Shown here: positions 13,274-14,085 of the stretch, in pieces
Position numbering within the stretch: the stretch's first letter is position 1
Layout: the number at the start of each line of letters is the position of its first letter
Source of the DNA: Catajapyx aquilonaris
Lineage: Eukaryota
NCBI GenBank assembly: GCA_000934665.2
Contig: KZ539074.1
Location: 1 to 64,000, forward strand
DNA: 64,000 nucleotides
Reading direction: 5' to 3'
Program-made: the position numbers and the translations under genes
The notes under the pieces: model-generated
Databases searched by the model: none
What the model was told of the DNA's origin: nothing
Seen by the model: only the letters and a program-made list of their open reading frames with translations

Positions 13274-13347
13274 GGCCCGTTAGCTCAGTTGGCTAGAGCG
13301 TCGTGCTGATAACGCGAAGGTCGTGGGTTCGACCCCCATGCGGGCCA
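13274..13347 (+). tRNA. tRNA-Ile(GAU): tRNA-Ile, anticodon GAT (13308-13310)
   Basis: Full cloverleaf: acceptor GGCCCGT/GCGGGCC, D stem GCTC/GAGC, anticodon stem TCGTG/CGCGA with loop CTGATAA, T stem GTGGG/CCCAT with loop TTCGACC, discriminator A. A TTTTT Pol III terminator lies a few bp downstream. Confidence 0.95.
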
Positions 13348-14011
13348 GGGTGCTTTTTGCTTGACATTCAAAAATACAGCAAGATATATTTTCTAGTACG
13401 CTGTTGGACCAGTTTATGCTGTATTGTTATTTTAAATGCGTGTTCAAGGAGGTGAAATTTTGTTTTGCTGGTGAGTGTTGCTTTTTTGTACAGTAAGTTT
13501 ATCCGTATATAATTTCAAAAATTATGGTTCAACCAAACGTGCCAACCTCAGGAGCCTTTTAAAAACAGTCCGAAATAATTACAGCTACAATTTCCTAGGA
13601 TGGCAACAAAATACCACAGCATGTATATCGATGTCTTTTTTCTTATACGTGTATGCCATTCAGTTAGCCTATACTCCAAGTTACCAGCAGCGAATGTGCC
13701 ACTAAATTATTCTTGCAAATTCTTGCAGTATGTTGAAGACTAGGCTTGATTAATTCACATTTTGGTACATGATAACGACATTCATCCGGGGGTGGAGGTA
13801 TAATAAGCAAAATTTGAGGAGTGTAGTGAAGAAGTACGATTTAGAAGTATATACTATAGTCTATAGACAATATGCTGGTTATGCCATTACATTTTTTTAA
13901 AACACACATTATAAAAATAATAGCAGGAGTATAATATCCTTTACCCGCGATACTGGACTGGACCGCAAGTACCAATCTAATGAGCTTGACACAAATTAAA
14001 GAAAAATAGAT

Positions 14012-14085
14012 TGGCCCGCATGGGGGTCGAACCCACGACCTTCGCGTTATCAGCACGACGCTCTAGCCAACTGAGCTAACGGGCC
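14012..14085 (-). tRNA. tRNA-Ile(GAU): tRNA-Ile, anticodon GAT; identical second copy, convergent with the first
   Basis: Reverse complement is identical to 13274-13347 over 74 nt. It has its own TTTTT terminator (aaaaa at 14002-14006 on +). Flanks are unrelated to those of copy 1. Confidence 0.95.

What the first reader, a model, noticed from the sequence alone, without database searches (positions are those of the whole stretch)
13274..14085. Two identical nuclear tRNA-Ile genes with a GAU anticodon on a eukaryotic AAU-type body
Seen: two 74 nt genes, 100% identical, convergent and ~660 bp apart. Each has intact stems, A/B boxes and its own T5 terminator, yet the flanks are unrelated; the loop is CT-GAT-AA. 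Established: eukaryotes normally read AUU/AUC with tRNA-Ile(AAU) edited to I34 by ADAT2/3, whereas G34 tRNA-Ile is the bacterial/archaeal solution and is rare in nuclear genomes. The body here resembles animal tRNA-Ile(AAU), not a bacterial or organellar tRNA, so this looks like an A34-to-G anticodon switch. Inference: identity with diverged flanks points to selection or gene conversion rather than one stray mutation. The lineage may use an editing-independent G34 Ile decoder, alongside or instead of I34.
Basis: partly seen in the sequence, partly recalled or inferred. Interest (0 to 1): 0.8.

Follow-up and report, generated by a model that had tools for sequence, protein, structure and literature searches.

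The report
Arthropod nuclear tRNA-Ile genes with GAU anticodon
Two identical, intact isoleucine tRNA genes in an arthropod-like animal genome carry a G-starting (GAU) anticodon on the standard animal tRNA-Ile body, a rare but already documented exception to the rule that eukaryotes use an A-starting, inosine-edited tRNA here.

Summary
ARAGORN and Rfam find two 74-nt tRNA-Ile(GAT) genes at 13274-13347 (+) and 14012-14085 (-). They are 100% identical and convergent, 664 nt apart. Identity stops exactly at the gene borders, and each gene has its own T5 terminator.

The "AAU-type body" claim also holds. A truncated metagenome scan for the 28-nt anticodon arm with N at position 34 gave 125 A, 1 T and 0 G in 126 matches. 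The nearest AAT gene differs at 4 of 74 positions.

Contigs of three runs (one sample) show G34 and no A. Depth is about 6-7.5 times that of the flanks, and several other flanks appear. That suggests a family of roughly 5-8 genes, not a SINE.

The window is animal and arthropod-like, with a Dmrt99B/DMRTA2 gene and P450 genes.

Most likely these are working, ADAT-independent AUC/AUU decoders that arose by an A34-to-G switch. Nuclear tRNA-Ile(GAU) is functional in human cells and annotated in Schistosoma, so this is a new member of a known kind. No genome is held, so I could not test whether Ile-AAT genes coexist or whether these genes are expressed.

The parts
13274..13347 (+). tRNA-Ile(GAT) gene, copy 1, 74 nt; G34 at 13308
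   Evidence: ARAGORN. Rfam RF00005 at 61 bits. Sequence. Contigs of runs X1-X3 agree at 13308.
13281..13292 (+). A-box-like internal promoter stretch of copy 1 (TAGCTCAGTTGG)
   Evidence: Read. The Pol III A-box consensus is recalled, not from a call.
13326..13336 (+). B-box-like internal promoter stretch of copy 1 (GGTTCGACCCC)
   Evidence: Read. The consensus is recalled.
13354..13358 (+). T5 run, putative Pol III terminator of copy 1, 6 nt after the gene
   Evidence: Sequence.
13348..14011 (.). 664-nt AT-rich unique spacer between the convergent genes; polymorphic between haplotype contigs
   Evidence: no repeat in the spacer. tables 3-4 (many SNPs and indels in the spacer).
14002..14006 (-). 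T5 run, putative Pol III terminator of copy 2, 5 nt after the gene
   Evidence: Sequence.
14012..14085 (-). tRNA-Ile(GAT) gene, copy 2, identical to copy 1; G34 is the complement of 14051
   Evidence: ARAGORN. Rfam. 100% inverted repeat. Contigs.

Best explanation
These are two members of a small family (roughly 5-8 copies per genome) of intact, RNA polymerase III-type nuclear genes for a cytosolic tRNA-Ile. The anticodon has changed from AAT to GAT on the otherwise standard animal tRNA-Ile(AAU) body.

Inferred mechanism:
- Each gene is transcribed from its internal A and B boxes and terminated at its own T5 run.
- The transcript receives CCA and probably t6A37, and is charged by cytosolic IleRS. 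Its Ile identity elements A35, U36, A37 and A73 are unchanged, and G resembles I at position 34.
- It reads AUC by Watson-Crick pairing and AUU by G-U wobble, without ADAT2/3 deamination. It cannot read AUA.

The gene anatomy, the AAU-type body, the G34 in the DNA and the multi-copy state are shown. Transcription, charging, decoding and any relation to Ile-AAT genes in the same genome are inferred.
For: - Both genes score as full tRNAs, with intact stems and terminators.
- The 28-nt anticodon arm matches environmental Ile genes that carry A34 in 125 of 126 matches, T in 1 and G in 0.
- Of the 122 matches with a full gene plus 20 nt downstream, 109 have T4 or more downstream and 1 encodes CCA. 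They are therefore nuclear Pol III-type genes.
- The nearest AAT genes (4 loci) differ at 4 of 74 positions.
- In run X1, the unitig 13303-13347, which includes the anticodon, has depth 164.7, and the unitig 14027-14085 has depth 133.1. Flank depth is 21.6-26.5. X2 and X3 give similar ratios.
- Loose ends show at least four other 3' flanks. Read on the gene strand, most carry T-runs.
- The shared sequence ends at the gene's last base, so this is not a SINE.
- No G>A at 13308 and no C>T at 14051 appears in any contig laid at 80% likeness or more.
- No allelic variant lies in the 148 nt of the two genes. Outside them, 33 variant positions lie in 1,653 nt, so about 3 would be expected inside. This is weak evidence (Poisson P about 0.05).
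- Human nuclear tRNA-Ile(GAU) is expressed, ribosome-associated and phenotypically active (passages of bioRxiv 10.1101/2021.04.22.440519).
- I34 and A73 are Ile identity elements (passages of PMC9976931).
Against: - There are no expression, CCA-addition or charging data.
- No genome-wide census of Ile-AAT, Ile-TAT or ADAT2/3 was possible, because no genome is held.
- The three runs that cover the genes come from one sample, which may be the assembly's own source. They are not independent confirmation.
- Reviews state that GAU is 'missing' in Eukarya (passage of PMC8007984). G34 versions of four-box tRNAs were toxic miscoders in human cells unless positions 32 and 38 could pair (passages of PMC7293025). 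Here C32 and A38 cannot pair, and the arm shows no compensating change. Ile was not among the tRNAs tested in that paper (0 occurrences of 'Ile').
- The gene has C at D-loop position 20, where 117 of 118 AAT-type genes have T. The effect is unknown.
Confidence: 0.72

Rival explanations
1. Replacement: in this lineage the GAT family is the main or only AUU/AUC decoder. It would have displaced the Ile-AAT genes, making isoleucine decoding independent of inosine in a metazoan.
For: - The copy number of about 5-8 is in the range I would expect for a major isoacceptor family in a mid-sized arthropod genome. That range is recalled, not tested.
- No contig with A at position 34 was laid at 80% likeness or more in three whole-run contig sets. 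Typical AAT genes with this arm are 76-95% like the window gene, and most are above 80%.
- The unitigs on both sides of position 34 are unbranched. No AAT gene in the genome therefore shares the adjacent 31-mers. This inference assumes k = 31.
Against: - The sensitivity of the laying step to an 80-95% paralogue with exact stretches of only 14-24 nt is unknown. Every piece shown could have a long exact seed, so the blank is weak evidence.
- Even the nearest known AAT type would not branch the unitigs.
- In human cells, GAU coexists with AAU.
- I know of no metazoan without Ile-AAT (recalled).
Confidence: 0.2
2. Neutral or decaying variants: a recently duplicated anticodon-mutant lineage of Ile-AAT genes that is poorly expressed or not expressed, tolerated because it decodes the same amino acid.
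For: - Large tRNAomes carry many 'forbidden' anticodon genes (passages of PMC5372738).
- One 5'-truncated copy exists elsewhere in the genome (loose ends at 13298 and 14061).
- There are no expression data.
Against: - All stems, boxes and terminators are intact in both copies.
- Several copies with different flanks keep identical 45-59-nt stretches.
- No allelic variants lie in the genes, although the flanks are about 2% polymorphic.
- The mutation is synonymous for identity and yields a canonical G34 decoder.
Confidence: 0.15
3. Artefact or foreign DNA: a sequencing or assembly error at position 34, a mitochondrial (NUMT) or bacterial tRNA-Ile(GAU), or contamination.
For: - Animal mitochondrial and bacterial tRNA-Ile use GAU (passage of PMC8007984).
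- The confirming runs may be the assembly's own data.
Against: - G34 sits in unitigs of depth 133-165 and in two separate copies.
- The body matches nuclear AAT genes at 70 of 74 positions.
- The G-specific arm occurs in only 2 contigs across the prokaryote collection. One flank (L125) encodes a eukaryotic P4-ATPase exon (E 2.3e-11), and the other contig (L124) looks eukaryotic too.
- The genes lie between animal genes with introns.
Confidence: 0.02

Closest known systems
Human nuclear tRNA-Ile(GAU) genes (tRNA-Ile-GAT loci)
   Same: Both are nuclear-encoded cytosolic Ile isoacceptors with G34 on a body very similar to tRNA-Ile(AAU), present at several loci. The human form is reported as expressed, ribosome-associated and cognate to AUC (passages of bioRxiv 10.1101/2021.04.22.440519). 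The published CRISPRi guide's reverse complement contains what I infer to be the first 14 nt of the human gene; 13 of these 14 match the window gene.
   Different: The organism here is arthropod-like, not a vertebrate. No expression data exist. Coexistence with AAT genes has not been shown.
Eukaryotic cytosolic tRNA-Ile(AAU), read as IAU after ADAT2/ADAT3 deamination
   Same: Same body: the anticodon arm is identical apart from position 34, and the nearest genes differ at 4 of 74 positions. It also has A73, A35, U36, A37, a U30-G40 pair, Pol III gene anatomy and no intron.
   Different: G34 replaces A34, so it cannot be an ADAT substrate and cannot form I34. The predicted reading is AUC and AUU only, not AUA. 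It has C20 where 117 of 118 AAT-type genes have T.
tRNA-Ile-GAT listed in Schistosoma mansoni, and the Giardia tRNA-Ile(GAU) noted earlier in this scan
   Same: Both are further nuclear G34 Ile genes in eukaryotes (passage of PMC2770079; scan note e1-638301, unchecked by me).
   Different: Those are annotation-level records in a flatworm and a protist. Their copy numbers and bodies were not compared here.
Bacterial, archaeal and mitochondrial tRNA-Ile(GAU)
   Same: Same anticodon and the same predicted decoding (AUC and AUU).
   Different: The body is unrelated. The G-specific 25-nt arm matched only 2 contigs in one genome each of 185,579 prokaryote species, and both look eukaryotic. The window genes have T-run terminators and lie in a nuclear context.

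Membership tests
Eukaryotic nuclear Pol III tRNA gene | Cloverleaf that scores as a tRNA | tested here: met
   ARAGORN. Rfam RF00005 at 61 bits against a gathering score of 29, full model.
Eukaryotic nuclear Pol III tRNA gene | Internal A and B boxes, downstream T-run of 4 or more, no encoded CCA | tested here: met
   Read: boxes at 13281-13292 and 13326-13336, T5 runs 6 and 5 nt downstream, no CCA. The box consensus is recalled.
Eukaryotic nuclear Pol III tRNA gene | Transcribed by Pol III and matured | not testable with these tools
   No RNA data could be laid. See Tried and rejected.
tRNA-Ile, animal AAU-type body | Sequence of the body shared with known-type Ile-AAT genes | tested here: met
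   The 28-nt arm is identical to 125 A34 genes of 126 matches. The nearest gene differs at 4 of 74 positions.
tRNA-Ile, animal AAU-type body | Ile identity elements: discriminator A73, A35, U36, A37 | tested here: met
   All are present in the sequence. The elements are as listed in passages of PMC9976931.
tRNA-Ile, animal AAU-type body | Charged with isoleucine by cytosolic IleRS | not testable with these tools
   This needs an aminoacylation assay or charged-tRNA sequencing.
ADAT2/3-dependent I34 tRNA | Encoded A at position 34 | tested here: not met
   G at 13308 and at the complement of 14051, in the window and in contigs.
Nuclear tRNA-Ile(GAU) isoacceptor (as in human) | GAT anticodon on a nuclear, AAU-like body at more than one locus | tested here: met
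.
Nuclear tRNA-Ile(GAU) isoacceptor (as in human) | Coexists with a majority of Ile-AAT genes | tested here: inconclusive
   No genome is held. No A34 contig was laid at 80% or more, but the sensitivity of that step is unknown.
tRNA-derived SINE or high-copy repeat head | Hundreds or more copies, with shared sequence continuing past the tRNA-like part | tested here: not met
   Depth is about 6-7.5 times the flank depth. The unitig ends at the last base of the gene, and the flanks differ.
Bacterial or organellar tRNA-Ile(GAU) | Body found in prokaryote or organelle genomes | tested here: not met
   Only 2 matches in genome contigs. One (L125) lies beside a eukaryotic P4-ATPase exon, and the other (L124) looks eukaryotic.

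The most novel reading that the evidence does not exclude
This arthropod-like lineage has replaced its inosine-dependent tRNA-Ile(AAU) genes with a G34 family, so AUU and AUC are read without ADAT2/3. It would be the first metazoan known (to my recollection) to have reverted one of the eight I34 boxes to the bacterial and archaeal solution. The C20 change in the D loop could be a co-adaptation. The switch could even have been seeded by a retro-copy of an edited pre-tRNA, because reverse transcriptase reads I as G and editing occurs on precursors (passages of PMC4446420).
Probability: 0.2. Interest if true: 0.75.

Novelty: new member of a known kind. Interest (0 to 1): 0.45.

Why it matters
Eukaryotes almost always spare G34 tRNAs in the eight boxes read by inosine, and why they do so is an open question (passages of PMC8266599 and PMC5372738). 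Natural, multi-copy G34 tRNA-Ile genes on an unchanged AAU-type body are a ready-made test case. They could show whether G34 is tolerated in the Ile box without a 32-38 adjustment, and how AUC/AUU/AUA decoding is shared out. If the AAT genes turn out to be missing, they would also show whether a metazoan can drop one ADAT substrate. If the GAT genes simply coexist with AAT genes, as in human, this is one more entry in a known list of exceptions.

Tried and rejected
- **Whole-genome census.** The genome search 'own' answered that no genome is held. tRNAscan-type counts and an ADAT2/3 search were therefore impossible.
- **Sequencing runs.** No RNA holder was listed. Run X5 (another sample) covered only 14241-14600 and not the genes, so there is no independent confirmation of G34.
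- **Taxon.**
  - The atlas search gave only DM-domain clusters.
  - The DM-exon protein search gave 120 listed hits, nearly all insects, none close. The top-ranked sand-fly protein ranks first only because it holds a duplicated DM domain.
  - The P450-exon search gave 1 weak hit.
  - The DMA-exon search gave none.
  - An N-terminal motif is shared with 2 mayfly proteins of 120. This is a hint only, so I call the organism arthropod-like, possibly an early-branching insect.
- **Earlier scan notes.** There were none for this genome or its relatives. The sequence look-up gave three unrelated prokaryote or virus notes. A word look-up gave one Giardia note. Another gave only prokaryote or phage notes.
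- **Literature.**
  - Search one search was a term-format error, corrected.
  - The Ile-GAT mentions in PMC13534245 and PMC10763252 are mitochondrial.
  - Those in PMC13376629 sit among bacterial-type names such as fMet and Ile2-CAT.
  - PMC5372738 has no passage on Ile.
  - Searches listed no paper on a nuclear Ile-GAT in an arthropod. That covers only the held library and those exact terms.
- **Other G34 hosts.** The two MAG-labelled assemblies G001 and G002 each hold only the one GAT match and no AAT match to the 20-nt arm. This says nothing on coexistence.
- **Codon usage.** Ile codons in about 540 supported codons of the window were ATT 18, ATC 9 and ATA 3. The sample is too small, and the result does not discriminate between G34 and I34.
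- **Folding.** The MFE fold is not the cloverleaf (z = -1.9). That is usual for unmodified tRNA sequences, and I did not use it.
- **Pfam.** The 34-aa L125 exon gave nothing; the PDB sequence search did. One search was a coordinate slip (a translation with stops) and was corrected.

Full report
**1. The observation**

ARAGORN finds exactly two tRNA genes in the window. Both are tRNA-Ile with anticodon gat, at 13274-13347 (+) and 14012-14085 (-). Rfam's tRNA model matches both over its full length at 61 bits, against a gathering score of 29.

The two genes form a perfect 74-nt inverted repeat with 664 nt between the arms. The repeat does not extend by a single base into the flanks. A short-word BLAST of the gene against the window finds no further copies or fragments.

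Read from the sequence:
- All four stems pair, with G-U pairs at 7-66, 30-40 and 49-65.
- The anticodon loop is CTGATAA.
- The discriminator is A.
- No CCA is encoded.
- A T5 run follows copy 1 after 6 nt and copy 2 after 5 nt.
- Stretches at 13281-13292 and 13326-13336 fit the Pol III A and B boxes. The consensus is recalled.

**2. Where the window comes from**

No whole genome is held for the window. The window itself contains:
- two tandem cytochrome P450 genes, with Pfam p450 hits on exons at 6586-7239, 7635-7862 and 10195-10554, and paralogous exons at 10809-11186 and 12163-12327;
- a DM-domain exon at 43323-43892 and a DMA-motif exon near 58.2-58.7 kb.

The DM exon's best relatives among 120 listed proteins are almost all insect Dmrt99B/DMRTA2 proteins, along with a few crustacean, myriapod and onychophoran ones and two fish proteins. 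Insect and other arthropod proteins share the N-terminus from the first residue. None is close. Two mayfly proteins of the 120 share an extra N-terminal motif with the window protein. I therefore treat the organism as an arthropod, possibly an early-branching insect, and go no further.

The tRNA pair lies about 0.9 kb downstream of the heme-binding exon of the second P450 gene, in non-coding sequence.

**3. Is the body really of the AAU type?**

I scanned the metagenome contig collection for the 28-nt anticodon arm with N at the wobble position. The wobble base is A in 125, T in 1 and G in 0.

Of the 122 matches with a full gene and 20 nt downstream, 109 have four or more T within 20 nt and only 1 encodes CCA. 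These are nuclear Pol III-type genes.

Of 118 genes in the same register, the nearest four differ from the window gene at 4 of 74 positions. Those positions are D-loop position 20, the wobble base, one T-loop base and one acceptor base that turns U-A into U-G. The bulk differ at 8-13 positions.

Two features set the window gene apart from the 118: G34 (0 of 118) and C20 (1 of 118).

A G-specific 25-nt version of the arm matched only two contigs across one genome each of 185,579 prokaryote species. Both carry a different Ile-GAT gene with a downstream T-run and AT-rich flanks.
- One (L125) lies beside an exon that matches eukaryotic P4-ATPases (E 2.3e-11).
- The other (L124) lies behind a tandem array of 5' tRNA fragments.

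Both look like eukaryotic DNA in records labelled as bacterial bins.

In viral contigs the same arm is TAT in 7 of 8 matches and AAT in 1.

The body is therefore that of a eukaryotic nuclear tRNA-Ile(AAU). It is not bacterial or mitochondrial, and G34 on it is rare. An A34-to-G transition is the simplest origin.

**4. Is G34 real, and how many copies are there?**

Five runs hold part of the stretch. I laid four of them. Three come from one sample and may be the assembly's own data. The fourth, from another sample, covers only 14241-14600.

In the three covering runs, no contig laid at 80% likeness or more shows A at 13308 or T at 14051.

Depths in run X1:
- The 45-nt unitig 13303-13347, which contains the anticodon, has depth 164.7.
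- The 59-nt unitig 14027-14085 has depth 133.1.
- The unique flanks have depth 21.6-26.5.

X2 and X3 give the same ratios. This is about 6-7.5 times the flank depth. The figure would be somewhat lower if the flank contigs average over two haplotypes, so I estimate 5-8 copies per haploid genome.

Loose ends show several other 5' and 3' flanks. Read on the gene strand, most of the 3' flanks contain T-runs.

The shared sequence stops at the last base of the gene. This is a small family of separate Pol III genes, not the head of a SINE.

One copy elsewhere is 5'-truncated (break at 13298/14061). One paralogue carries C instead of T at 13301.

The stretch is about 2% polymorphic between haplotype contigs outside the genes: 33 variant positions in 1,653 nt, plus indels. 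None is allelic within the 148 nt of the two genes. This is weak evidence of constraint, since about 3 would be expected (P about 0.05).

**5. What I could not establish**

First, expression: no RNA data could be laid.

Second, whether Ile-AAT genes exist in this genome. The absence of any A34 contig is suggestive, because typical AAT genes with this arm are mostly 80-95% like the window gene. However, I do not know how sensitive the laying step is to paralogues whose longest exact stretches are only 14-24 nt.

The unbranched unitigs exclude only an AAT gene that shares the 31-mers next to position 34, and even the nearest known AAT type would not share them.

I therefore give the replacement reading about 0.2.

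**6. Mechanism**

G34 pairs with C (Watson-Crick) and with U (wobble), so the tRNA should read AUC and AUU but not AUA. Unlike A34, it needs no ADAT2/3 deamination.

The Ile identity elements named in the review I read are A73, the anticodon bases and position 37, with I34 a positive determinant for yeast IleRS (passages of PMC9976931). All are present or mimicked, and G and I share the Watson-Crick face (established chemistry).

Against smooth function, G34 versions of four-box tRNAs (Ala, Pro, Thr, Leu) were toxic miscoders in human cells unless positions 32 and 38 could pair (passages of PMC7293025). Here C32 and A38 cannot pair. Ile was not tested in that paper.

**7. Comparison with what is known**

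Reviews state the rule that GAU is missing in Eukarya and that A34 and G34 isoacceptors exclude each other (passages of PMC8007984, PMC5372738, PMC4446420 and PMC8266599).

Exceptions are in print:
- Large tRNAomes disregard G34 sparing.
- S. mansoni is listed with tRNA-Ile-GAT (passage of PMC2770079).
- In human cells, nuclear tRNA-Ile(GAU) is encoded at several loci and is highly similar to tRNA-Ile(AAU). It is ribosome-associated, and changing its level alters AUC-dependent translation and metastasis (abstract and passages of bioRxiv 10.1101/2021.04.22.440519).

My four searches of the held library listed no paper on a nuclear Ile-GAT in an arthropod. GtRNAdb-type tables could not be consulted.

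**8. Verdict**

The genes are most likely functional members of a small nuclear tRNA-Ile(GAU) family.

That is a new member of a known, rare kind, not a new kind. Interest is moderate (0.45).

The interest would rise sharply if a genome-wide census showed that Ile-AAT genes are absent.

Noticed in passing
L124 1-825 and L125 1-825 (also L134, L135): Two contigs labelled as bacterial MAGs (assemblies of 16 and 20.3 Mb) carry eukaryote-type tRNA-Ile(GAT) genes with T-run terminators. The L125 flank holds an intron-bounded exon that matches P4-ATPases (ATP8B1, E 2.3e-11). L124 has a tandem array of about 30-nt units made of the tRNA's 5' end, upstream of the intact gene. They look like host eukaryote DNA mis-binned into bacterial bins, and they show G34 Ile genes in at least one other eukaryote.
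   Followed up: partly
window 5600-7900 and 10190-12330 (+): Two tandem, diverged cytochrome P450 genes (38-49% identity between paralogous exons). The protein search with one exon found only one weak relative, so this looks like a lineage-specific CYP pair.
   Followed up: partly
window 43323-43892 (+) and 58220-58747 (+): A Dmrt99B/DMRTA2 orthologue with its DM exon and DMA exon about 14 kb apart. An N-terminal motif is shared with only 2 mayfly proteins of the 120 relatives listed. The regions after the DM domain and around 59.2-59.9 kb are rich in Q, P and A runs.
   Followed up: partly
window 25580-26044 (+) and 34468-34998 (+): Two paralogous cysteine- and proline-rich ORFs (154 and 176 aa) with a repeated CPPC/CxPxxxC pattern and no Pfam match. 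They may encode a lineage-specific secreted cysteine-rich protein pair.
   Followed up: no
window 13293 (and 14066 on the minus-strand copy): The GAT genes have C at D-loop position 20, where 117 of 118 AAT-type genes with the same anticodon arm have T. This could simply mark the GAT lineage or be a co-adapted change. It would also let tRNA-seq reads tell GAT products from edited AAT products.
   Followed up: partly
elsewhere in the genome, seen as loose ends at window 13298 and 14061: One copy of the GAT gene in the contigs is 5'-truncated: unrelated sequence replaces about the first 24 nt. Another paralogue carries C for T at 13301, which would break the first anticodon-stem pair.
   Followed up: no
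L126-L132 (viral contigs): Seven of eight viral contigs with the same 25-nt anticodon arm carry tRNA-Ile(TAT) genes with near-identical flanks. This looks like a conserved giant-virus or large-phage tRNA-Ile(UAU) locus that shares the eukaryote-type Ile arm.
   Followed up: no
window 12800-14600: Contigs from runs of a single sample carry different haplotypes with about 2% SNPs and several indels (up to 13 nt) in the spacer and flanks. The source is therefore highly heterozygous or pooled.
   Followed up: partly
window 29901-30662 (-): A 253-aa open frame with no Pfam match, possibly a remnant of a repeat or transposon ORF.
   Followed up: no
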